From a virus (taxonomy: Duplodnaviria; Heunggongvirae; Uroviricota; Caudoviricetes): 22,138 bases of DNA. Under the pieces are notes generated by a model. It had not been told where the DNA came from. It saw only the letters and a program-made list of their open reading frames with translations, and ran no database searches. Positions 3,683 to 11,917 of this stretch are shown here, piece by piece. The translations under genes were made by a program, and so were the position numbers. Position 1 is the first letter of the stretch. Each line of letters opens with the position of its first letter. The stretch is from the IMG/VR virus record IMGVR_UViG_3300045988_101675, one strand, 5' to 3'.

Positions 3683-3954
3683 GCATTCGTATTGAAATTG
3701 GCGAACGTTATGTGGTTACCAGTGACAGCTTCCAGTTTATTCTCCACGAGAAAAAGAGAGCGGAAAGCGGTAAAAACGCCGGTCAGGAGTGGCTGGCGGT
3801 GGTTGGTTATTACCCGAAATTAAGCCAGCTCGTTTCCGGCCTGATGCATCACGATATTCTGACCGGAAGCGCAAAATCTTTTGCCGATTTAAACGCGCAG
3901 GTTGAGCAACTCAGCAAGCGTTGCTCAGAGGCTTTTGGCTCACATGGCCGTTAA
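3679..3954 (+). CDS. Hypothetical early protein (91 aa)
   Basis: ORF in the early operon. Its 3' end overlaps the A start by 11 nt. Confidence 0.6.
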   Translation: MSIRIEIGERYVVTSDSFQFILHEKKRAESGKNAGQEWLAVVGYYPKLSQLVSGLMHHDILTGSAKSFADLNAQVEQLSKRCSEAFGSHGR

Positions 3955-6229
3955 AGCCTCCGGGCGTTTTGTCCCTCCGTCAGCATTTGCCGCAGGCACC
4001 GGTAAGGCGTTTACCGGTGCTTATGCATGGAACGCGCCACGCGAGGCCGTCGGGCGCGAAAGACCCCTTACACGTGACGAGATGCGTCAGGTGCAAGGTG
4101 TTTTATCCACGATTAACCGCCTGCCTTACTTTTTGCGCTCGCTGTTTACTTCACGCTATGACTACATCCGGCGCAATAAAAGCCCGGTGCACGGGTTTTA
4201 TTTCCTCACATCCACTTTTCAGCGTCGTTTATGGCCGCGCATTGAGCGTGTGAATCAGCGCCATGAAATGAACACCGACGCGTCGTTACTGTTTCTGGCA
4301 GAGCGTGACCACTATGCGCGCCTGCCGGGAATGAATGACAAGGAGCTGAAAAAGTTTGCCGCCTGTATCTCATCGCAGCTTTTCATGATGTATGAGGAAC
4401 TCAGCGATGCCTGGGTGGATGCACATGGCGAAAAAGAATCGCTGTTTACGGATGAGGCGCAGGATCACCTCTATGGTCATGTTGCTGGCGCTGCACGTGC
4501 TTTCAATATTTCCCCGCTTTACTGGAAAAAATACCGTAAAGGACAGATGACCACGAGGCAGGCATATTCTGCCATTGCCCGCCTGTTTAACGATGAGTGG
4601 TGGACCCATCAGCTTAAAGGCCAGCGTATGCGCTGGCATGAGGCGTTACTGATTGCTGTCGGGGAGGTCAATAAAGACCGTTCTCCTTATGCCAGTAAAC
4701 ATGCCATTCGTGATGTGCGTGCGCGCCGCCAGGCAAATCTGGAATTTCTTAAATCGTGTGACCTTGAAAACAGAGAAACCGGCGAGCGTATCGACCTTAT
4801 CAGTAAGGTGATGGGCAGTATTTCTAATCCTGAAATTCGCCGGATGGAGCTGATGAACACCATTGCCGGTATTGAGCGTTACGCCGCCGCAGAGGGTGAT
4901 GTGGGGATGTTTATCACGCTGACCGCGCCGTCAAAGTATCACCCGACACGTCAGGTCGGAAAAGGCGAAAGTAAAACCGTCCAGCTAAATCACGGCTGGA
5001 ACGATGAGGCATTTAATCCAAAGGATGCGCAGCGTTATCTCTGCCGTATCTGGAGCCTGATGCGTACGGCATTCAAGGATAATGATTTACAGGTCTACGG
5101 TTTGCGTGTCGTCGAGCCACACCACGACGGAACACCGCACTGGCATATGATGCTTTTTTGTAATCCACGCCAGCGTAACCAGATTATCGAAATCATGCGT
5201 CGCTATGCGCTCAAAGAGGATGGCGACGAAAGAGGAGCCGCGCGAAACCGTTTTCAGGCAAAACACCTTAACCGGGGCGGTGCTGCGGGATATATCGCTA
5301 AATACATCTCAAAAAATATCGACGGCTATGCACTGGATGGTCAGCTCGATAACGATACCGGCAGGCCGCTTAAAGATACTGCCGCGGCTGTTACCGCATG
5401 GGCGTCAACGTGGCGCATCCCGCAATTTAAAACGGTTGGTCTGCCGACAATGGGGGCTTACCGTGAACTACGCAAATTGCCTCGTGGCGTCAGCATTGCT
5501 GATGAGTTTGACGAACGCGTCGAGGCTGCACGCGCCGCCGCAGACAGTGGTGATTTTGCGTTGTATATCAGCGCGCAGGGTGGGGCAAATGTTCCGCGCG
5601 ATTGTCAGACTGTCAGGGTTGCCCGTAGCCCGTCGGATGACGTTAACGAGTACGAGGAAGAAGTCGAGAGAGTGGTCGGCATTTACGCGCCGCATCTCGG
5701 CGCGCGTCATATTCATATCACCAGAACGACGGACTGGCGCATTGTGCCGAAAGTGCCGGTCGTTGAGCCTTTGACTTTAAAAAGCGGCATCGCCGCGCCT
5801 CGGAGTCCTGTCAATAACTGTGGAAAACTCACCGGTGGTGATACTTCGTTACCGGCTCCCACACCTTCTGAGCACGCCGCAGCAGTGCTTAATCTGGTTG
5901 ATGACGGTGTTATTGAATGGAATGAACCGGAGGTCGTGAGGGCGCTCAGGGGCGCATTAAAACACGACCTGCGAACGCCAAACCGTCAGCAAAGAAACGG
6001 AAGCCCGTTAAAACCACATGAAATTGCACCATCGGCCAGACTGACCCGGTCGGAAAGAATGCAAATTACCCGTATCCGCGTTGACCTTGCTCAGAACGGT
6101 ATCAGGCCGCAGCGATGGGAGCTTGAGGCGCTGGCGCGTGGCGCGACCGTAAATTATGACGGGAAAAAATTCACGTATCCGGTCGCTGATGAGTGGCCGG
6201 GATTCTCAACAGTAATGGAGTGGAAATGA
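3944..6229 (+). CDS. A: Rolling-circle replication initiation endonuclease gpA (HUH superfamily)
   Basis: Track ORF begins at TTG 3902; trimmed to ATG 3944 (MAVKASGRFVPP...), giving 761 aa, the P2 A length as I recall it. Contains the HUH-like PHWHMMLF motif and the two-tyrosine active-site segment GYIAKYISKNIDGY. Confidence 0.93.
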   Translation: MAVKASGRFVPPSAFAAGTGKAFTGAYAWNAPREAVGRERPLTRDEMRQVQGVLSTINRLPYFLRSLFTSRYDYIRRNKSPVHGFYFLTSTFQRRLWPRIERVNQRHEMNTDASLLFLAERDHYARLPGMNDKELKKFAACISSQLFMMYEELSDAWVDAHGEKESLFTDEAQDHLYGHVAGAARAFNISPLYWKKYRKGQMTTRQAYSAIARLFNDEWWTHQLKGQRMRWHEALLIAVGEVNKDRSPYASKHAIRDVRARRQANLEFLKSCDLENRETGERIDLISKVMGSISNPEIRRMELMNTIAGIERYAAAEGDVGMFITLTAPSKYHPTRQVGKGESKTVQLNHGWNDEAFNPKDAQRYLCRIWSLMRTAFKDNDLQVYGLRVVEPHHDGTPHWHMMLFCNPRQRNQIIEIMRRYALKEDGDERGAARNRFQAKHLNRGGAAGYIAKYISKNIDGYALDGQLDNDTGRPLKDTAAAVTAWASTWRIPQFKTVGLPTMGAYRELRKLPRGVSIADEFDERVEAARAAADSGDFALYISAQGGANVPRDCQTVRVARSPSDDVNEYEEEVERVVGIYAPHLGARHIHITRTTDWRIVPKVPVVEPLTLKSGIAAPRSPVNNCGKLTGGDTSLPAPTPSEHAAAVLNLVDDGVIEWNEPEVVRALRGALKHDLRTPNRQQRNGSPLKPHEIAPSARLTRSERMQITRIRVDLAQNGIRPQRWELEALARGATVNYDGKKFTYPVADEWPGFSTVMEWK

Positions 6230-6681
6230 TGGCAAAAATTCACGAGGTAAAGCTGCACGCAAAATATTTTGACCTTGTGCTGGAAGGAAAGAAACGCGCA
6301 GAGTTTCGGAAAAATGACCGTAATTATGAGCGCGGGGACACATTGATTTTGCATGAATGGGTGCAGGGTGTGTTTACGGGGCGAAAGGTTGAAGCCCGGA
6401 TAACAGATGTTACTGACCTGTCAGACTGGCTGGAAGATTATGTCTTGCTAAGTATTGAGCTGCTTAATACGGGCGCATATAAGATTGTGAACTGGAAAGA
6501 ACTTAGTGAGCGTGGCCTGGTATTCAGAATTAATCATGAAATTATGCATCAGCTCGGCCTTGCTGTTATGTATGAACCAGAGACGGGGATGTCTGGCGGG
6601 GCAATGGTTGCCACGGATGGAGTATGGAACTATTCAGATGAACAGATGGAGCGTGCACAGCAAAACGGGTGGCTCGGATAA
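6226..6681 (+). CDS. ASCH/DUF3850-like domain protein with a C-terminal extension
   Basis: 151 aa. The N-terminus (EVKLHAKYFDLVLEGKKRAEFRKNDRNYERGDTLILHEW) resembles ASCH/DUF3850 domains as I know them. GGAG lies 5 nt upstream. The start overlaps the A stop, suggesting translational coupling. Confidence 0.7.
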   Translation: MMAKIHEVKLHAKYFDLVLEGKKRAEFRKNDRNYERGDTLILHEWVQGVFTGRKVEARITDVTDLSDWLEDYVLLSIELLNTGAYKIVNWKELSERGLVFRINHEIMHQLGLAVMYEPETGMSGGAMVATDGVWNYSDEQMERAQQNGWLG

Positions 6682-6735
6682 TGCACAGAATACCAGGCGA
6701 GATACCGCACCATAAAAACTAAAAATATCAAGCTG

Positions 6736-6894
6736 ATGGCCATTGTTCACCGTCTACAGCAGATTATGGTCAACGAAAATCTGACGCCCGATGAACTAGT
6801 CGGGTGTGCCGAAATAGTCCGGGATAATTACGGGCGACTTAACTATATCGGTATCGGTCAGTCCAGAGTTGCGCCACCACCACGCAGACGATAG
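6736..6894 (+). CDS. Possible small ORF (52 aa)
   Basis: ATG-initiated ORF read by hand, below the 60-aa track cutoff, ending 5 nt before repeat copy 1. No clear Shine-Dalgarno sequence. Confidence 0.25.
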   Translation: MAIVHRLQQIMVNENLTPDELVGCAEIVRDNYGRLNYIGIGQSRVAPPPRRR

Positions 6895-6898
6895 AGAA

Positions 6899-6965
6899 CG
6901 CCGCCAGTCGTGAAACTTGTTTTCAGGGCTGGCGGCGTTGAACAACGAGCGAAGCGAGGCGTTAG
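6899..6965 (+). repeat. Copy 1 of a 67-nt repeat: 39-nt GC-clamped stem-loop (6899-6937) plus a 28-nt tail ending GCGTTAG
   Basis: CGCCGCCAGTCGTGAAA / CTTGT / TTTCAGGGCTGGCGGCG forms a stem of about 17 bp. About 82% identical to copy 2. Lies at the left boundary of the AT-rich insert. Confidence 0.65.
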
Positions 6966-7123
6966 TTGACAGTCATATTTTTACTGCGTTGGTGCTGGTT
7001 TTTGACGGTTGAAAGGAGTTAGCCAGGAGAGCAAAAGCCAACAACTTACAAATATTCAAAAGTAAGCTTCCTGTTGCTAACATAAGGTCGATTTTTTATG
7101 TGGATGATGCAAAAAGGATAGCT

Positions 7124-7855
7124 ATGGATATTGTAATCGCTTTTCTATCACTCGCTTTTTTCGTTGCTTTTTTCATCGGGTTAATCAAGCCATCACTGGT
7201 GCGGATGCCAAACCGTAAACGTGCAAGTGCGGTTTATCTCGGAGGTAGTTTTGCATTGAGCATAATTGGTTCAATACTCTACCCAACAGAAAAAAGCCAG
7301 CCAGTTGCTAAAACTGAAACAGCAACCGTAGCAGAACACCAGGCTCAAAAAACATTCGAATATACTGAAAAAACACTCAAGGAATATCGGAACGAGCCAA
7401 AGAAGACGCGACACGATATTGTGAATAGTTACATTAACTTTAAGAAAGTGCCAGTCACCGCATCAGATGCATTTTATGCCTGCATGAGTGAGTATACATT
7501 TACCAAAGATGATGAGTTGAAACTCGGTGATGTTCTTGGGTGGTGCTTTAATGATTATGAAAATGACCCGAATTCATTAAACAATAAAATCAATCTTGAT
7601 ACATTTCAGAGTAATTTTAGTGGTTGGGATGGTTCTTATCGGCCATTGGAAAAATTAATTAAAGATAATATGAACGATGATTCATCTTATAAACATGTGT
7701 CAACGGTATATCATTTGGTTTTGAATAAAGACCCGCACGCCATTGTGAAAACCACGTTTCGCGGCACTAATGCTTATGGTGGAGTGGTAAAGCAGACCGT
7801 AGCGGCGCGCGTCAACGTGCGAACGGGTGAGGTCGATTCGATACTCGACAATTAA
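7124..7855 (+). CDS. Accessory membrane protein of unknown function: two predicted N-terminal TM helices and a ~180-aa C-terminal domain
   Basis: Track ORF begins at GTG 7100; ATG 7124 has AAGGA 5 nt upstream. Hydrophobic segments IVIAFLSLAFFVAFFIGLI and AVYLGGSFALSIIGSILY. AT-rich, unlike the backbone. No recognisable motif. Confidence 0.7.
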   Translation: MDIVIAFLSLAFFVAFFIGLIKPSLVRMPNRKRASAVYLGGSFALSIIGSILYPTEKSQPVAKTETATVAEHQAQKTFEYTEKTLKEYRNEPKKTRHDIVNSYINFKKVPVTASDAFYACMSEYTFTKDDELKLGDVLGWCFNDYENDPNSLNNKINLDTFQSNFSGWDGSYRPLEKLIKDNMNDDSSYKHVSTVYHLVLNKDPHAIVKTTFRGTNAYGGVVKQTVAARVNVRTGEVDSILDN

Positions 7856-7871
7856 ACAATATAGTGACATA

Positions 7872-7938
7872 CCCCGCCAGTACTGAAACTTGTTTTCAGT
7901 GCTGGCGGGGTTAAACAAAGAGCATCGTGAAGCGTTAG
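7872..7938 (+). repeat. Copy 2 of the 67-nt repeat: stem-loop (7872-7910) plus tail
   Basis: CCCCGCCAGTACTGAAA / CTTGT / TTTCAGTGCTGGCGGGG. Same architecture as copy 1, with the second stem base pair swapped from G-C to C-G. Lies between the two accessory genes. Confidence 0.65.
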
Positions 7939-7963: not shown

Positions 7964-8626
7964 ATGCTTTGGAAAATAATTTCTTTTTTATTAGTTGGTA
8001 TTTGTATGTTTGCTTTCGGTTTATGGTTAGGCTCTATTCAGGCTGAATGGGCGAAACCAGAGCATAAAGATGCTGTTGCTTATTTAGCAATGATCGGAGG
8101 ATGGGTCTCAGGAATTGCAACGTCAGTCGCAGTAATTATTTCATTGTATGCGACATATCAAGCATCACAGAATAATGTTGAAAAATTAAGTTTAACCTAT
8201 AAGCCTTACTCTAGCGTAGACAAAGAAAATTATTGTGCCAATATTGAGGTTGTAAATTTGCGGAGCGTTCCGGTACATATACAAGAGTTTTGCTTAGAAT
8301 TTAGTGGGATAAATAATCATTTCAACATAAACGAACTAAAAGCAAATGGGAAGGAGATACCGTATTCTTTATACCAAGTAGGAGAGAAATGGGAGTTTGC
8401 CTTCTATCCTTTTGCAAAGCTGGGAAATATGAGGTTCTATAAAAGCTTAAGTGAGAATGGTAATCCAAGTTTTCGTAGTGGTTTCTTTGTGGTTAAAACA
8501 TCAATGAAACAATACAAATTAAGGATACCTAATGAGCTTTTGGAAATTATGAAAATTAGCTATGAAAAGCAAATGGAAATACGGAAGAATTATAAGGAAA
8601 TGCATGGTAAAGAGATGGGCTTTTAA
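7964..8626 (+). CDS. Accessory membrane protein of unknown function: two predicted N-terminal TM helices and a ~150-aa C-terminal domain
   Basis: 220-aa ORF with GAGG 8 nt upstream of the ATG. Hydrophobic segments IISFLLVGICMFAFGLWLG and VAYLAMIGGWVSGIATSVAVIISLY. Very AT-rich. Last gene before cos. Confidence 0.7.
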   Translation: MLWKIISFLLVGICMFAFGLWLGSIQAEWAKPEHKDAVAYLAMIGGWVSGIATSVAVIISLYATYQASQNNVEKLSLTYKPYSSVDKENYCANIEVVNLRSVPVHIQEFCLEFSGINNHFNINELKANGKEIPYSLYQVGEKWEFAFYPFAKLGNMRFYKSLSENGNPSFRSGFFVVKTSMKQYKLRIPNELLEIMKISYEKQMEIRKNYKEMHGKEMGF

Positions 8627-8749
8627 AACGCATTAACAAGCATCAAATTGCATGCGCATCCCTCCCCTGTTGTGTTTGAGCGCTGCCAGTGATGGTGTGC
8701 CTCTGGCGTGTTCGTGCAACTGCATTAAAACCGCCCCATGAAGCGGGCG

Positions 8750-8768
8750 GGCGAGGCGGGGAAAGCAC
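8750..8768. other. cos site: 19-nt cohesive-end sequence GGCGAGGCGGGGAAAGCAC
   Basis: Matches the P2 cohesive-end sequence as I remember it. Located between the accessory region and gene Q, as in P2. A 6-bp GC dyad (CCGCCC ... GGGCGG, 8731-8750) abuts its left edge. Confidence 0.75.
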
Positions 8769-8937
8769 TGCGCGCTGGCGGTGGTGCTGATTTTATTTTT
8801 TCAGCGTCTGAGCGCGTCTTGATGGCGTTTAGATTGTGCGCCGGGGCGTTGGTGTGTCTGCGGGGTGTTTTGTGCGGTGGTGAGCGTGTGAGGGCGTGAT
8901 GACGGGGTGTAAAAAAGCCGCCCGCAGGCGGCGATGT

Positions 8938-9972
8938 TCAGCCGTTGTCAGTGTCCAGTGAGTAGTTTTTAAAGCGGATGACCTCCTGGCCGAGCCAGCC
9001 GTTTATTTCCCGAATCCTGTCCTGTAGCGGGATAAGCTCATTGCGGACAAAGACCTTTGCCACTTTCTCAATATCACCCAGAGACCCGACGTTCTCCGGC
9101 TTGCCGCCCATCAACTGAAAGGGGATGCGGTGCGCGTCCAGCAGGTCAGCGGCGCTGGCTTTTTTGATATTAAAAAAATCGTCCTTCGTCGCCACTTCAC
9201 TGAGGGGGATAATTTTAATGCCGTCGGCTTTCCCCTGTGGGGCATAGAGAAACAGGTTTTTAAAGTTGTTGCGGCCTTTCGACTTGACCATGTTTTCGCG
9301 AAGCATTTCGATATCGTTGCGATCCTGCACGGCATCAGTGACGTACATGATGTATCCGGCATGAGCGCCGTTTTCGTAATACTTGCGGCGGAACAGCGTA
9401 GCTGATTCATTCAGCCAGGCAGAATTAAGGGCGCTGAGATATTCCGGCAGGCCGTACAGCTCCTGATTAATATCCGGCTCCAGCAGGTGAAACACGGAGC
9501 CGGGCGCGAAAGGTGTCGGCTCGTTGAAGGACGGCACCCACCAGTAAACATCCTCCTCAACACCACGGCGGGTATATTTTGCCGGTGAGGTTTCCAGTCT
9601 GATGACCTTACCGGTGGTGCTGTAGCGCTTTTCCAGAAACGCATTACCGAACACCAGAAAATCCAGCACAAAGCGGCTGAAATCCTGCTGGGAAAGCCAC
9701 GGGTGCGGAATAAACGTTGAAGCCAGAATATTACGTTTGACGTAAATCGGTGAGCTGTGATGTACGGCAGCACGCAGGCTTTTTGCCAGACCGGTAAAGC
9801 TGACCGGTGGCTCATACCATCTGCCGTTACTGATGCACTCGACGTAATCCAGAATGTCACGGCGGTCGAGTACCGGCACCGGCTCACCAAAGGTGAATGC
9901 CTCCATTTTCGGGGCGCTGGCGGTGATTGTTTTTGCCGCAGGTTGCGGTGTTTTCCCTTTTTTCTTGCTCAT
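8938..9972 (-). CDS. Q: Portal protein gpQ
   Basis: 344 aa, the P2 Q length as I recall it. First gene after cos, co-oriented with the large terminase, with a 1-nt overlap between the P stop and Q start. Confidence 0.93.
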   Translation of the reverse strand: MSKKKGKTPQPAAKTITASAPKMEAFTFGEPVPVLDRRDILDYVECISNGRWYEPPVSFTGLAKSLRAAVHHSSPIYVKRNILASTFIPHPWLSQQDFSRFVLDFLVFGNAFLEKRYSTTGKVIRLETSPAKYTRRGVEEDVYWWVPSFNEPTPFAPGSVFHLLEPDINQELYGLPEYLSALNSAWLNESATLFRRKYYENGAHAGYIMYVTDAVQDRNDIEMLRENMVKSKGRNNFKNLFLYAPQGKADGIKIIPLSEVATKDDFFNIKKASAADLLDAHRIPFQLMGGKPENVGSLGDIEKVAKVFVRNELIPLQDRIREINGWLGQEVIRFKNYSLDTDNG

Positions 9973-11744
9973 CAGTAAAACTCCAGAATGGTGGATGTCA
10001 GCGGAGTGCTGATACCGGCGGTGAGTGGCTCATTTAACAGGGCGTGCATGGTCGCCCAGGCGAGGTCGGCGTGGCTGGCTTCCTCGCTGCGGCTGGCCTC
10101 ATAGGTGGCGCTGCGTCCGCTGCTGGTCATGGTCTTGCGGATAGCCATAAACGAGCTGGTGATGTCGGTGGCGCTGACGTCATATTCCAGACAGCCACGG
10201 CGGATGACGTCTTTTGCCTTGAGCACCATTGCGGTTTTCATTTCCGGCGTGTAGCGGATATCGCGCGCGGCGGGATAGAACGAGCGCACGAGCTGGAACA
10301 CGCCGACACCGAGGCCGGTGGCATCAATCCCGATGTATTCAACGTTATATTTTTCGGTGAGTTTGCGGATGGATTCCGCCTGGGTGGCAAAGTCCATGCC
10401 TTTCCACTGGTGACGCTCAAGTATTCTGAATTTGCCACCGGCCACCACCGGCGGTGCCAGTACCACGCATCCGGCGCTGTCGCCACGGTGTGACGGGTCG
10501 TAACCAATCCATACCGGGCGGGAGCCGAACGGATTGGCGGCAAACGGCGCATAGTCTTCCCATTCTTCCAGCGTGTCGACCATGCAGCGTTGCAGCTCCT
10601 CGAACGGGAACACCGACGCCTTGTCGTCAACAAATTCACACATGAACAGGTTTTTAAAATCGTCGGCGCTGTTTTCACGTTTGAGCTGCTCAATGTCGAA
10701 CAGCGTGCAGCCGCCTTTCAGGGCGTCCTCAATGGTGACAATCTGCCGCCACTGGCCGTCCGCACAGAGAAGACCACCGGCAAGAGCGTTATGACTGACG
10801 TCTATTTCCACGCGTTCGGCGGCGCTGGCGCGTCCCCGGTTAAACAGTTCACCCGACCAGAACGGGTAGGCGTCGTGCGCCAGCGTGGACGGGGTGGAGA
10901 AATAGGTCGAGCGCAGGTGACTCTGTGAGGCCATACCTGATGCCACCTTACGCAGTACCTGAAAATTCGGGATCCAGAAAATCTCATCGACGTACAGGTC
11001 GCCGTTATGGCTCTGCGCGGTGTTGGAGTTGGTGCCGAGAAAAATCAGTTTTGCGCCGTTATTGCCCAGGACAATCGGGTCACCGGTCAGGTCAACGTCA
11101 ACCAGCCGGGCAAAGGCGATGATGTATTCGCGGAACACATACGCCTGCGTTTTACTGGCCGACAGAAAAATCTGGTTATGACCGGTTTTCAGGGCGCGCA
11201 GCAGCGCCTCGCGGGAAAAATAAAACGTCGCGCCAATCTGGCGGGATTTCAGGATATCGCGGATGCGGTGCTCAAGCCCGGCGCGATACCAGTGCAACTG
11301 ATAGTCGAAAGACTGCTCAAAGAAAATCTGCTCCAGCTTTTCGATGGCCTCGTCACTGAAAAAATTCTTTTTCGGTTTGCGACGCCCGCCTTTGTTGCGG
11401 TTAGCGACGTTCGGATTAAGGTCTGCCTCGTTGCCGGTCTGACTGTAGCGGTTGACCCGCGCCAGTCGTTCAATCTGGCGTCCCAGCAGGTCAATTTCCT
11501 TGAAGTCACCGCCGGTTTTCTGCGGTTTGATGATGAGCTGGGTCAGCCGCGCTTCCAGACTCATTTCGACACGGCTGATGGGGGCAACGCTGTCCCAGCC
11601 GTCGCGCTGTTTCCAGCTCTGCACCGTCGGGCGTTTCATCTGCAACATGGCGGCAATCTGCGGCACGGAAAACCCCTGCCAGTACAGCAGCGCCGCCTGA
11701 CGACGCGGATCGTGTAAAAGAGTGGTGTCTGTGGTGATGGTCAT
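9972..11744 (-). CDS. P: Terminase large (ATPase) subunit gpP
   Basis: Track ORF begins at TTG; trimmed to ATG (MTITTDTTLLHD...), giving 590 aa, the P2 P length as I recall it. Confidence 0.93.
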   Translation of the reverse strand: MTITTDTTLLHDPRRQAALLYWQGFSVPQIAAMLQMKRPTVQSWKQRDGWDSVAPISRVEMSLEARLTQLIIKPQKTGGDFKEIDLLGRQIERLARVNRYSQTGNEADLNPNVANRNKGGRRKPKKNFFSDEAIEKLEQIFFEQSFDYQLHWYRAGLEHRIRDILKSRQIGATFYFSREALLRALKTGHNQIFLSASKTQAYVFREYIIAFARLVDVDLTGDPIVLGNNGAKLIFLGTNSNTAQSHNGDLYVDEIFWIPNFQVLRKVASGMASQSHLRSTYFSTPSTLAHDAYPFWSGELFNRGRASAAERVEIDVSHNALAGGLLCADGQWRQIVTIEDALKGGCTLFDIEQLKRENSADDFKNLFMCEFVDDKASVFPFEELQRCMVDTLEEWEDYAPFAANPFGSRPVWIGYDPSHRGDSAGCVVLAPPVVAGGKFRILERHQWKGMDFATQAESIRKLTEKYNVEYIGIDATGLGVGVFQLVRSFYPAARDIRYTPEMKTAMVLKAKDVIRRGCLEYDVSATDITSSFMAIRKTMTSSGRSATYEASRSEEASHADLAWATMHALLNEPLTAGISTPLTSTILEFY

Positions 11745-11917
11745 GAATACCTCGCCGTGATGAATACACGGCAAGGCTACTGAGTCGCGCCCCGCGATTC
11801 GCTAAGGTGCTGTTGTGTCAGTGATAAGCCATCCGGGACTGATGGCGGAGGATGCGCATCGTCGGGAAACTGATGCCGACATGTGACTCCTCTAATCACT
11901 ATTCAGGACTCCTGACA
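11745..11917. promoter_or_regulatory. Divergent late promoter region between P and O, containing the dyad GCCATC-N7-GATGGC (11828-11846)
   Basis: Intergenic region between divergently transcribed late operons. P2 late promoters are activator-dependent. I searched for the TGT-N12-ACA element and did not find an exact match, so placement is approximate. Confidence 0.4.

What the first reader, a model, noticed from the sequence alone, without database searches (positions are those of the whole stretch)
6899..7938. Two copies of a 67-nt repeat with a 17-bp stem-loop, one upstream of each accessory gene
Copies at 6899..6965 and 7872..7938 are about 82% identical and share the same architecture. 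Each has a GC-clamped outer stem, an inner CTGAAA/TTTCAG stem, a 5-nt loop CTTGT, and a 28-nt tail ending GCGTTAG. The second base pair of the stem is G-C in copy 1 and C-G in copy 2, so the pairing is kept while the sequence changes. That suggests selection on structure. Neither copy is followed by a U-tract, so these are not canonical intrinsic terminators. Candidate roles are a structured RNA element, a regulator binding site, or a recombination site marking gene-unit boundaries.
Basis: seen in the sequence. Interest (0 to 1): 0.65.

Follow-up and report, generated by a model that had tools for sequence, protein, structure and literature searches.

The report
Conserved hairpin bordering P2 cargo hotspot
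The two repeats are copies of a roughly 70-base element (a hairpin whose sequence varies but whose pairing is kept, followed by an almost invariant tail) that closes the last rightward genes of P2/186-like prophages across Enterobacterales and marks, to the base, where their swappable accessory or defence genes begin.

Summary
The window is a P2-like prophage, and the two repeats lie in its variable "tin/old" (TO) region between replication gene A and cos. They belong to a family, called E here, found in P2/186-like prophages of 39 Enterobacterales genomes, always between gene A and the portal gene.

E has two parts:
- A hairpin of about 18 bp with very strong covariation. In 93 distinct copies, 93.8% of cells are paired, 16 of 18 pairs show compensatory changes, and sliding the partners gives 27-40%.
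- A 29-nt tail that is more conserved than neighbouring synonymous sites.

Wobble pairs favour the + strand. E starts 2-8 nt after the stop codon of tum, orf92 or orf97. Sequence becomes unrelated exactly after ...GCGTTAG, with 61 junction classes (some divergent p85 homologues).

The window has two copies because an orf92|E module and a 186-type orf97|E module were joined. E is not an intrinsic terminator, an attC site, a REP element or an Rfam family.

My best guess (about 0.4) is a cis-acting RNA element in the 3' UTR or between cistrons, which also serves as the left homology arm for cargo exchange. The rivals are a single-stranded-DNA signal resembling the phage's own ori, and a true recombination site.

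The parts
6897..6965 (+). Element copy E1: hairpin 6897-6939 (AAC...GTT, 18 pairs, one G.G mismatch in the upper stem, loop CTTGT) plus tail 6940-6965 (GAACAACGAGCGAAGCGAGGCGTTAG)
   Evidence: Covariance-model hit 6891-6965, 89 bits. Fold. Homology to P2-type phages (Wphi, 'Peduovirus P2' OU784549) ends at 6967.
7870..7938 (+). Element copy E2: hairpin 7870-7912 (18 pairs including G.U wobble, loop CTTGT) plus tail 7913-7938 (AAACAAAGAGCATCGTGAAGCGTTAG, a diverged tail)
   Evidence: Covariance-model hit 7864-7938, 74.8 bits. Homology to phage 186 (orf97 plus its element) runs 7074-7938 and stops at the element's last base.
6736..6894 (+). orf92-type small gene (phrog_11386). Its stop codon TAG lies 2 nt before E1.
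   Evidence: The same gene is followed by the element in Wphi, PSP3, SW9, L241 and L244.
7100..7855 (+). Orf97-family gene (phrog_3403). In phage 186 this gene is annotated 'expression from plasmid blocks 186 infection'. It is followed by E2.
7964..8626 (+). Cargo ORF of unknown function (phrog_16957, N-terminal hydrophobic stretch), first gene after E2
   Evidence: no PADLOC or Pfam match.
5784..5821 (+). Replication origin inside gene A: a 5-bp hairpin (GCGGC ATC GCCGC) followed by the invariant tail GCCTCGGAGTCCTGTCAATAACTGT. It has the same 'variable hairpin plus invariant tail' layout, on the same strand, 1.1 kb upstream of E1.
   Evidence: identical to the P2 ori, whose nick site is annotated in NC_001895. 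The stem covaries between P2 and 186.
3902..6229 (+). Replication gene A (HUH rolling-circle initiator)
   Evidence: Pfam Phage_GPA, 9e-123.
8750..8768 (+). cos 19-mer, identical to P2 cosR. It is the right-hand limit of the variable region.
8938..9972 (-). Portal gene Q, the first conserved gene beyond cos
   Evidence: Pfam Phage_portal. 99-100% identical in 80 IMG/VR loci.

Best explanation
**What it is (shown).** The repeats are two copies of a discrete cis-element of about 70 nt, E, typical of P2/186-like prophages of Enterobacterales. E has two parts. The first is an AAC...GTT-clamped hairpin whose sequence drifts freely while pairing is kept. The second is a 29-nt tail, GTTGAACAAcGAGC-N3-GcGAGGCGTTAG, whose sequence is almost frozen. 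E is read on the + strand. It begins 2-8 nt after the stop codon of the last rightward genes of the early or SOS operon (tum, orf92, orf97) and ends exactly where the hypervariable cargo begins.

**How it most likely works (inferred).** E acts in the transcript as an element of the 3' UTR or the space between cistrons.
- The stable hairpin is a barrier to 3'-to-5' exonucleases, or a processing site. It sets the stability of the upstream message and uncouples it from whatever cargo lies downstream.
- The invariant single-stranded tail is the landing site for a host factor. In about 14% of contexts it supplies the Shine-Dalgarno sequence for the next gene.

**Consequence for cargo exchange.** E is the last conserved sequence before the hotspot. 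It therefore serves as the left-hand homology arm when cargo is exchanged, with cos and the portal gene as the right arm.

**Why the window has two copies.** An orf92|E module and a 186-type orf97|E module were joined. This was not a recent duplication.
For: **Locus.** gene A, orf91/92, Orf97, cos and portal are identified.

**Family and context.** A search with the tail alone over 185,579 species genomes gave 39 Enterobacterales hits. All lie between gene A and portal, and each has a hairpin of different sequence at the same distance from the tail.

**Covariation.**
- MAFFT alignment of 43 sequences: 92.2% paired against 34-50% when partners are slid, and 13 of 18 pairs change on both sides.
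- RNAalifold finds the same helix independently.
- 93 distinct copies: 93.8% paired, 16 of 18 pairs compensatory, 329 compensatory cells in the whole structure against 109 +/- 12 in shuffles.

**Strand.** G.T/T.G pairs number 66 against 17 A.C/C.A. The + strand also folds better.

**Tail constraint, from sampling that did not depend on E.** 78 of 79 usable loci fetched through Tum carry E right at the tum stop codon. Per-site diversity is 0.0-0.1 across the 14-nt and 12-nt tail blocks. It is 0.1-0.5 at tum third codon positions and in the stem, and 0.5-0.7 from the first base after TTAG.

**Transcribed.** In phage 186, E lies between orf97 and the annotated 'p95 transcript terminator' t95b, 24 nt downstream.

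**Junction.** In 109 unique contexts there are 61 downstream classes with no shared prefix beyond chance. Homology breakpoints fall at 6967 and 7938.

**Old paralogues.** In PSP3, SW9, L241 and L244 (tum-Ea-orf92-Eb), the two copies within a genome are less alike than orthologous copies across genomes.
Against: - There is no transcript, half-life or processing data for E itself. The RNA reading rests on strand asymmetry, position and one GenBank annotation.
- All the strand evidence fits a + strand DNA hairpin equally well.
- A decay barrier alone does not explain 26 nearly invariant tail bases. I cannot name the factor that would bind them, and no complementary target exists in the window.
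- The tail is the ribosome binding site of the next gene in only 15 of 109 contexts.
- E is dispensable. Canonical P2 lacks it. So do about 74% of 72 E. coli P2-like loci in which the whole interval from gene A to portal is present.
- Homologous recombination explains how existing junctions spread. It does not explain how dozens of unrelated cargos first became joined at the same base.
Confidence: 0.4

Rival explanations
1. **Single-stranded-DNA signal on the displaced strand.** Rolling-circle replication starts at the gene A nick and displaces the + strand. E is then a structured signal on that strand. It would be either a single-strand initiation (lagging-strand priming or helicase-loading) site, like the sso/ssi signals of rolling-circle plasmids and phages, or a secondary site for the HUH protein gpA.
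For: - E has the same layout as the phage's own ori: a hairpin with a covarying stem (GCGGC/GCCGC in P2, GGCGC/GCGCC in 186) followed by an invariant tail, on the same strand.
- E lies 1.1 kb (E1) and 2.1 kb (E2) downstream of the ori on that strand.
- Its orientation relative to gene A is fixed in every locus.
- The + strand is the folding strand.
- It is dispensable and exchanged as a module, as plasmid sso elements are.
- The tail is the same in Peduovirus and Eganvirus although their gpA proteins are only 31-43% identical. That points to a host factor.
- The top of the stem is A/T-rich, which eases extrusion.
Against: - Canonical P2, the phage in which lagging-strand synthesis was defined, has no E. 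Most E. coli P2-like prophages also lack it.
- The tail shows no convincing similarity to the ori nick region.
- It carries no conserved primase (CTG) or DnaA-box motif.
- E abuts stop codons and lies inside a mapped transcript, which a DNA signal does not require.
- The direction of fork movement is inferred from the annotated nick strand. I did not check it.
Confidence: 0.22
2. **A true recombination site.** A structure-specific enzyme (gpA, a host enzyme or an unknown one) cuts after ...GCGTTAG. Cargo is thereby inserted or replaced at a fixed base, as at an integron attC/attI site or at the hairpin ends of HUH transposons.
For: - The junction is precise to the base, with 61 downstream classes (some are divergent p85 homologues, so at least 40 are unrelated) and no nested remnants.
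- E is flanked by unrelated sequence on both sides: at least five upstream gene families.
- Arrays of gene-E-gene-E exist.
- AAC/GTT triplets clamp the stem as in attC, and GTTGAAC fits the GTTRRRY motif.
- From memory only: Nilsson et al. 2004 argued for site-specific recombination at this region. I could not read the paper.
Against: - The left borders of the orf92 and orf97 modules lie at the gene starts, not at the preceding E. There is therefore no clean cassette.
- Homology between phages does not break at the G|TT at the hairpin base. It breaks 26 nt further on.
- The + strand folds, whereas attC uses the bottom strand.
- There are no 7-bp R boxes.
- The only tyrosine recombinase in the window is the phage integrase, 5.8 kb away.
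- Copies Ea and Eb within one genome are old and divergent.
- Selection for an intact E, together with pressure to keep the genome compact, could sharpen junctions made by illegitimate recombination.
Confidence: 0.15
3. **Transcription terminator or attenuator.** E closes the early or SOS operon and insulates the cargo from it.
For: - It is a strong GC-clamped hairpin right after stop codons.
- In PSP3 and SW9, copy Ea sits where phage 186 has the partial terminator t95a, directly after tum.
Against: - There is no U-tract in any copy. GAACAAC follows the stem.
- The terminator scan does not call it.
- In 186 the transcript is annotated as ending at t95b, 24 nt beyond E.
- Some downstream genes take their Shine-Dalgarno sequence from the tail, so transcription must read through.
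Confidence: 0.08
4. **Double-stranded-DNA operator.** E is an inverted repeat bound by a dimeric regulator.
For: It is an inverted repeat with a short spacer next to regulated genes.
Against: - The arms change sequence freely while staying complementary. That is selection for folding, not for a protein that reads bases.
- The strand-asymmetric wobble pairs have no explanation in duplex DNA.
- The conserved part, the tail, is not palindromic.
Confidence: 0.03

Closest known systems
REP-type and intercistronic stabiliser hairpins (for example the malE-malF REP) and hairpins that mark trimmed 3' ends of mRNAs
   Same: A stable hairpin without a U-tract, placed just after a stop codon, inside a transcript and between genes. 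Its sequence can vary as long as pairing is kept.
   Different: E is confined to P2/186-like prophages, with about one place per genome, whereas REPs occur hundreds of times per chromosome. E lacks the GTAG motif. It carries a 29-nt invariant tail that REPs do not have.
Integron attC sites (59-base elements)
   Same: A structure-conserved, sequence-variable hairpin clamped by AAC...GTT. It follows each gene in an array and has sharp module boundaries. It contains GTTRRRY-like motifs (GTTGAAC, GTTAG).
   Different: E has no 7-bp complementary R boxes and no extrahelical bases; it has a G.G mismatch instead. The boundary lies 26 nt beyond the GTT. The top strand folds rather than the bottom strand. 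There is no IntI. The left borders of the modules are not at E.
The P2/186 replication origin, other HUH-endonuclease substrates, and the sso/ssi signals of rolling-circle replicons
   Same: A hairpin with a covarying stem followed by an invariant single-stranded tail, specific to one strand and one orientation, downstream of the nick. Like sso elements, E is dispensable and behaves as a module.
   Different: The stem is much longer (18 bp against 5 bp). The tail sequence is unrelated to the nick region. No activity has been tested. E is absent from canonical P2.
Conserved boundary or linker sequences at mosaic joints of lambdoid phages, and the flanking homology arms described for P2/P4 defence hotspots (Rousset 2022, PMC9122126; NAR 2026, PMC13586616)
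   Same: A short conserved sequence at a module junction that can serve as a homology arm for swapping neighbouring genes.
   Different: Compensatory evolution and tail invariance show that E is under its own selection, so it is not only a by-product of recombination. Neither hotspot paper mentions a hairpin, stem-loop or terminator in its main text.

Membership tests
Intrinsic (Rho-independent) terminator | GC-rich hairpin | tested here: met
   An 18-pair stem, -35 to -39 kcal/mol as RNA.
Intrinsic (Rho-independent) terminator | U-tract directly after the stem | tested here: not met
   The stem is followed by GAACAAC in essentially all copies. The terminator scan does not call it.
Intrinsic (Rho-independent) terminator | Transcripts end at the element | tested here: not met
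   The phage 186 record places the p95 transcript terminator t95b 24 nt downstream of E. This rests on the annotation only.
Integron attC | Conserved AAC / GTT triplets at the base of an imperfect hairpin of variable sequence | tested here: met
   AAC is kept in 88-89 and GTT in 88-89 of 93 distinct copies.
Integron attC | 7-bp R''/R' boxes (RYYYAAC / GTTRRRY) that pair with each other | tested here: not met
   The 3' side, GTTGAAC, fits. The 5' side is purine-rich (GCGAAC, ACAAAC, AGAGAAC) and is not complementary to it.
Integron attC | Cassette boundary at G|TT of R', at the base of the hairpin | tested here: not met
   Homology continues through the 26-nt tail beyond the GTT and ends after GCGTTAG.
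Integron attC | The bottom strand is the folded, recombined strand | tested here: not met
   Wobble pairs favour the top (gene-sense) strand, 66 against 17.
Integron attC | Adjacent IntI integrase and attI site | tested here: not met
   The only tyrosine recombinase in the 22-kb window is the phage integrase at 96-1091, on the - strand.
REP/BIME elements | Many dispersed extragenic copies in the host chromosome | tested here: not met
   There is a median of one place per E. coli genome that has any match: 240 of 5,426 genomes by megablast. All 39 Enterobacterales hits lie in a P2-like context.
REP/BIME elements | Conserved GTAG next to the palindrome | tested here: not met
   It is absent from the consensus.
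HUH-endonuclease origin or nick site (P2 gpA ori type) | Hairpin of variable sequence followed by an invariant single-stranded tail on the nicked strand | tested here: met
   The ori in P2, 186 and other loci has this layout, as does E on the same strand.
HUH-endonuclease origin or nick site (P2 gpA ori type) | Tail carries the gpA nick sequence (CTCG|GAGTyCTGTCAATAAC) | tested here: not met
   Only short resemblances were found (TNAAYAAC; CGCCTCG on the opposite strand).
HUH-endonuclease origin or nick site (P2 gpA ori type) | Cleavage or joining by the Rep protein | not testable with these tools
   This needs an assay with purified gpA and oligonucleotides.
Single-strand initiation (sso/ssi) signal | Fixed orientation relative to the leading-strand origin, and dispensable | tested here: met
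   The strand is the same as gene A in every locus. E is absent from P2 and from about 74% of E. coli P2-like loci.
Single-strand initiation (sso/ssi) signal | Supports priming on single-stranded DNA | not testable with these tools
   This needs an M13-based ssi assay.
Any Rfam family | Covariance-model match | tested here: not met
   The only hit was a chance 19.8-bit match to Giardia RNase MRP (gathering score 60).

The most novel reading that the evidence does not exclude
E is the recombination site of a phage-borne gene-capture system. The extruded + strand hairpin plus tail is cut after ...GCGTTAG by an HUH-type enzyme, most plausibly the phage's own replication protein gpA, whose ori has the same hairpin-plus-tail layout. 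Accessory and defence genes would then be inserted or exchanged at a fixed base, working like an integron but through single-strand rolling-circle chemistry.
Probability: 0.08. Interest if true: 0.9.

Novelty: new variant of a known kind. Interest (0 to 1): 0.58.

Why it matters
**Biological context.** The region between gene A and cos in P2-like phages is one of the best-studied defence-gene hotspots. How cargo is swapped there so fast and so cleanly is still open.

**What the element offers.** E is a discrete conserved element that defines the left edge of the hotspot to the base, and it is clearly under its own structural and sequence selection. That makes the question concrete and testable:
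- Mutate the stem or the tail and measure cargo exchange.
- Measure expression and stability of the antirepressor Tum and of the first cargo gene.
- Measure replication intermediates.

**Practical use.** E is a precise landmark for delimiting cargo in thousands of prophages. It is also a candidate new structured-element family for Rfam-type databases.

**If the function turns out to be ordinary.** If E is only an mRNA stabiliser, it is still an unusually clean example of compensatory evolution beside a frozen single-stranded motif.

Tried and rejected
- **Rfam.** Nothing real.
- **Promoter and terminator scan.** Neither copy is called. No sigma-70-like hexamers with sensible spacing are visible in the tail.
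- **Complement of the tail elsewhere in the window.** I was looking for a long-range pairing partner. Only the elements themselves matched.
- **IMG/VR scan with the 15-mer TGAAACTTGTTTTCA.** Most hits were chance, and the pattern biases towards one inner stem. I replaced it with a tail-only pattern and with protein-anchored sampling.
- **'The tail is just the ribosome binding site of the next gene'.** Rejected as a general explanation. Only 15 of 109 contexts have an ATG-initiated ORF within 12 nt. All three codon positions are invariant.
- **'Recent tandem duplication'.** Rejected. The copies are 82% identical, each matches orthologues in other phages better than it matches its partner, and older two-copy arrays exist.
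- **'Clean mobile cassette (gene plus E)'.** Rejected. The left borders lie at the gene starts.
- **Resemblances considered by eye and dropped.** These were LexA box, Chi, RfaH ops (GGCGGTAG against GGCGTTAG), boxA/nut, sigma-54, DnaA box and Xer/dif. Each is either not conserved across genera, on the wrong strand, or mismatched at key bases. None was tested beyond reading the sequence.
- **Literature.** Nilsson et al. 2004 (Mol Biol Evol 21:1) and Odegrip et al. 2006 are not held. The papers that cite them give no detail. The main texts of Rousset 2022 and the NAR 2026 hotspot paper contain no mention of a hairpin, stem-loop or terminator.
- **A second small hairpin in the tail.** AAC-AA-CGAGC-NNN-GCGAG-GC-GTT is compatible with the data, because the tandem G.A/A.G is replaced by U-A/C-G in 3-4 copies. 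The region is too invariant to test.
Full report
**1.

Positions 6899-6965 and 7872-7938 are 55/67 (82.1%) identical. They form the longest direct repeat in the window: 79 nt, 80% identical, two copies. A degenerate pattern of the hairpin finds only these two sites, and none of 100 shuffles gave a match.

Each copy folds into an 18-pair hairpin with the loop CTTGT. As RNA the + strand gives -38.8 and -34.8 kcal/mol (z about -6), against -26.5 and -31.3 kcal/mol for the - strand. DNA parameters rank the strands the same way. There is no U-tract, and no terminator or promoter is called at either copy.

Two details need correcting. Copy 1 reads GTGAAA, not CTGAAA, and has an internal G.G mismatch. 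The 'compensatory' G-C/C-G position is a G.G mismatch in most relatives.

**2. Where we are.**

The window is a P2-like (Peduovirus) prophage. Its features, in order:

| Coordinates | Strand | Feature |
|---|---|---|
| 96-1091 | - | integrase |
| 3902-6229 | + | replication gene A |
| 6193-6681 | + | Orf91-like ASCH/DUF3850 gene |
| 6736-6894 | + | orf92-type small gene |
| 6897-6965 | + | E1 |
| 7100-7855 | + | Orf97-family gene |
| 7870-7938 | + | E2 |
| 7964-8626 | + | ORF of unknown function |
| 8750-8768 | + | P2 cos 19-mer |
| 8938-9972 | - | portal gene |
| 9972-11774 | - | terminase |

This is the tin/old region, the defence hotspot of P2-like phages (PMC9122126; PMC13586616). Neither accessory ORF matches PADLOC or Pfam.

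**3. The repeats belong to a family.**

BLAST finds the element in 73 phage records, including Wphi, 186, PSP3, Salmonella, Klebsiella, Yersinia and Erwinia phages.

To avoid biasing the stem, I searched one genome for each of 185,579 species using only the tail (GTTGAACAA-N10-GAGGCGTTAG). That gave 48 hits. Of these, 39 are in Enterobacterales, across many genera including Citrobacter, Enterobacter, Pantoea, Serratia, Mixta, Tatumella and Rosenbergiella. Every one of the 39 lies in a P2/186-like prophage, with gene A upstream on the same strand and portal downstream on the other strand. Every one has a hairpin at the same distance from the tail but with a different stem sequence. The nine hits outside Enterobacterales have no hairpin and look like a coding-sequence coincidence.

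**4. Structure is selected.**

| Data set | Cells paired | With partners slid | Pairs changed on both sides | Compensatory cells (shuffles) |
|---|---|---|---|---|
| MAFFT alignment, 43 copies | 92.2% | 34-50% | 13 of 18 | 128 (38; 0/500 reach it) |
| Model-aligned, 93 distinct copies | 93.8% in the hairpin (87.5% whole structure) | 27-40% | 16 of 18 in the hairpin | 329 (109 +/- 12) |

RNAalifold predicts the same helix independently. The model-aligned set leans towards the model's structure, but the MAFFT result agrees with it.

The conserved features are:
- the AAC/GTT clamp;
- a G.G mismatch next to the clamp (25 of 43 copies);
- a freely varying GC-rich middle;
- an A/U-rich top;
- a loop of 4-5 nt.

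G.T/T.G pairs outnumber A.C/C.A by 66 to 17. The strand that matters is therefore the + strand, which is the sense strand of the early operon and the strand carrying the ori nick.

**5. The tail is selected for sequence.**

I sampled loci through the neighbouring Tum protein, independently of the element. Of 79 usable IMG/VR loci, 78 have E starting at the tum stop codon. In those loci the per-site diversity is as follows:

| Region | Diversity |
|---|---|
| tum third codon positions | 0.1-0.5 |
| hairpin stem | 0.1-0.5 |
| GGTTGAACAACGAG and GCGAGGCGTTAG | 0.0-0.1 |
| the 3-4 nt between those two blocks | 0.3-0.7 |
| from the first base after TTAG | 0.5-0.7 |

Invariance at all three phases rules out a coding constraint. 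The tail may form a small second hairpin (AAC-AA-CGAGC-NNN-GCGAG-GC-GTT). In 3-4 copies the tandem G.A/A.G is replaced by U-A/C-G. There is too little variation to test this.

**6. Context.**

*Upstream.* E begins 2-8 nt after the stop codon of a + strand gene. That gene is Tum, the DinI-like antirepressor, in most genera. Otherwise it is orf92, Orf97, or genes of phrog_698/1993.

*Downstream.* Anything can follow. Among 109 unique contexts there are 61 junction classes. Some are divergent homologues of one 85-residue ORF (p85), so I count at least 40 as unrelated. They lie on either strand and share no prefix beyond chance. In 15 of 109 contexts an ATG lies 2-6 nt after TTAG, so the tail's GAGG acts as its Shine-Dalgarno sequence. 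Homology between phages ends at window 6967 (P2-type phages) and at 7938 (186 type).

**7. E is optional.**

Canonical P2 has no copy. Its tin gene, on the opposite strand, ends 38 nt after orf91. Among 72 E. coli loci with a near-identical portal and the whole interval from gene A to portal present, only about 19 carry E. With a few exceptions, these are the loci that also carry orf92. Among 5,426 complete E. coli genomes, 240 match by megablast, with a median of one place per matching genome.

**8. Why there are two copies here.**

In phage 186 the order is tum, t95a, orf97, E, t95b, cos. The window is homologous to 186 from 26 nt before orf97 to the last base of E2 (7074-7938, 76% identical). 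Phage 9W and loci L128 and L196 share E1, the leader and orf97 with the window, but they diverge inside the end of orf97 (7812-7833) and have no E2. So E1 belongs to orf92 and E2 belongs to orf97.

Two-copy arrays also occur in PSP3, SW9 and two genome loci, in the order tum, Ea, leader, orf92, Eb. There, the two copies within one genome are 60-87% identical, while orthologous Eb copies in different genomes are 91-95% identical. They are old paralogues, each maintained separately.

The left edge of the orf92 module is its start codon, not the preceding E. This argues against a clean gene-plus-E cassette.

**9. What it is not.**

- **Not an intrinsic terminator.** There is no U-tract. In 186 the p95 transcript is annotated as ending at t95b, 24 nt beyond E.
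- **Not attC.** It has no paired 7-bp R boxes. The boundary is 26 nt beyond the GTT. The top strand folds. There is no IntI.
- **Not REP.** It is confined to the prophage, occurs about once per genome, and has no GTAG.
- **Not an Rfam family**.
- **Not a duplex operator.** The arms vary freely.

**10. Mechanism.**

*Shown:*
- a bipartite, strand-specific element under dual selection;
- a position at the 3' end of rightward genes;
- inclusion in a mapped transcript in 186;
- coincidence with the hotspot's left junction.

*Inferred, about 0.4:* E acts in RNA. The hairpin is a decay barrier or processing site for the upstream message. The tail is a host-factor or ribosome landing site. E also doubles as the left homology arm for cargo exchange.

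*Main rival, about 0.22:* a + strand single-stranded-DNA signal. The phage's own ori has the same layout on the same strand, 1.1 kb upstream: a 5-bp hairpin whose stem covaries between P2 and 186, followed by an invariant tail. E is also orientation-fixed, dispensable and modular, like plasmid sso/ssi signals.

*Other readings:* a true recombination site (about 0.15) would best explain the base-precise junctions, but it lacks a recombinase and clean cassettes. A terminator or attenuator is unlikely (about 0.08).

**11. Novelty.**

I found no annotation of the element in the GenBank records of P2-EC67, Wphi, 186, PSP3 or SW9. I found no Rfam family. The main texts of the two hotspot papers contain no mention of a hairpin, stem-loop or terminator.

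The 2004 paper that argued for site-specific recombination at this region could not be read. It may already have noted the border sequence. My recollection of its content is a lead, not evidence.

I rate E as a new variant of a known kind of element, a cis-acting hairpin at a module boundary. Its unusual features are the frozen tail and its ori-like architecture.

Noticed in passing
window 6681-6735 and 6736-6894: orf92 seems to have lost its N-terminus. In PSP3 and SW9 the homologous gene starts at an ATG that aligns with window 6681, where it overlaps the orf91 stop as TAATG. In the window a 1-nt difference introduces a stop after 13 codons, so only the internal ATG at 6736 gives the 52-residue ORF.
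   Followed up: partly
window 6966-7022: Directly after E1, a TTG lies 6 nt after the tail's GAGG and opens an 18-codon hydrophobic mini-ORF (MTVIFLLRWCWFLTVERS). The same leader recurs in other E. coli loci that have E1 followed by orf97. It could be a leader peptide or chance.
   Followed up: no
window 5784-5821; L002 3877-3914; L003 about 2555-2600: The P2-type ori inside gene A is a small hairpin whose stem covaries between phages (GCGGC/GCCGC in P2 and this window, GGCGC/GCGCC in 186, PSP3 and SW9). It is followed by an invariant CTCGGAGTyCTGTCAATAACTGT.
   Followed up: partly
E. coli RefSeq chromosomes NZ_CP196099, NZ_CP172140, NZ_CP075663, NZ_CP147084, NZ_CP160121: In several complete genomes the element sits at exactly coordinate 2941. 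This suggests those assemblies were rotated to start at the same prophage feature about 2.9 kb upstream, possibly gene A mistaken for a chromosomal start gene.
   Followed up: no
L141 about 8188-10050, against window 8773-8912: An IMG/VR prophage that otherwise matches the window at 99.6% identity carries about 1.7 kb of extra DNA right next to the cos 19-mer.
   Followed up: no
L204, L205, L206, L211, L227, L239, L248, L250: The tail pattern also matches, without any hairpin, in Lactobacillus, Nostoc, Rahnella, Dickeya, Woeseiaceae and Gracilimonas. Five of these share a context like ATGTTGAACAACATGGTnCGnGAGGCGTTAGT, and the three Nostoc loci share another (GTGTTGAACAAGCAAGTCAAAGAGGCGTTAGAAAAAAC). 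These are probably conserved coding segments.
   Followed up: no
L226 7204 onwards; L237 (- strand) after 6268: In two genomes an ORF beginning MGFPSPAQDYVE starts 2-3 nt after the element and uses the tail's GAGG as its Shine-Dalgarno sequence. From memory this resembles the N-terminus of UmuD/S24 peptidases. I ran no family search on it.
   Followed up: no
L208, L209, L229, L249 and others, 2-3 nt after the element: A conserved ORF of 85-93 residues (phrog_2100, function unknown) is the commonest first gene after the element outside E. coli. Degenerate remnants of it persist in other loci (L231, L233, L236, L242).
   Followed up: partly
L003 3545-3577 (phage 186 t95a): In 186, the position directly after tum holds a canonical partial terminator (ACCCCATG...CATGGGGTTGTTTTGT). 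In PSP3 and SW9 the same position holds a copy of the element.
   Followed up: partly
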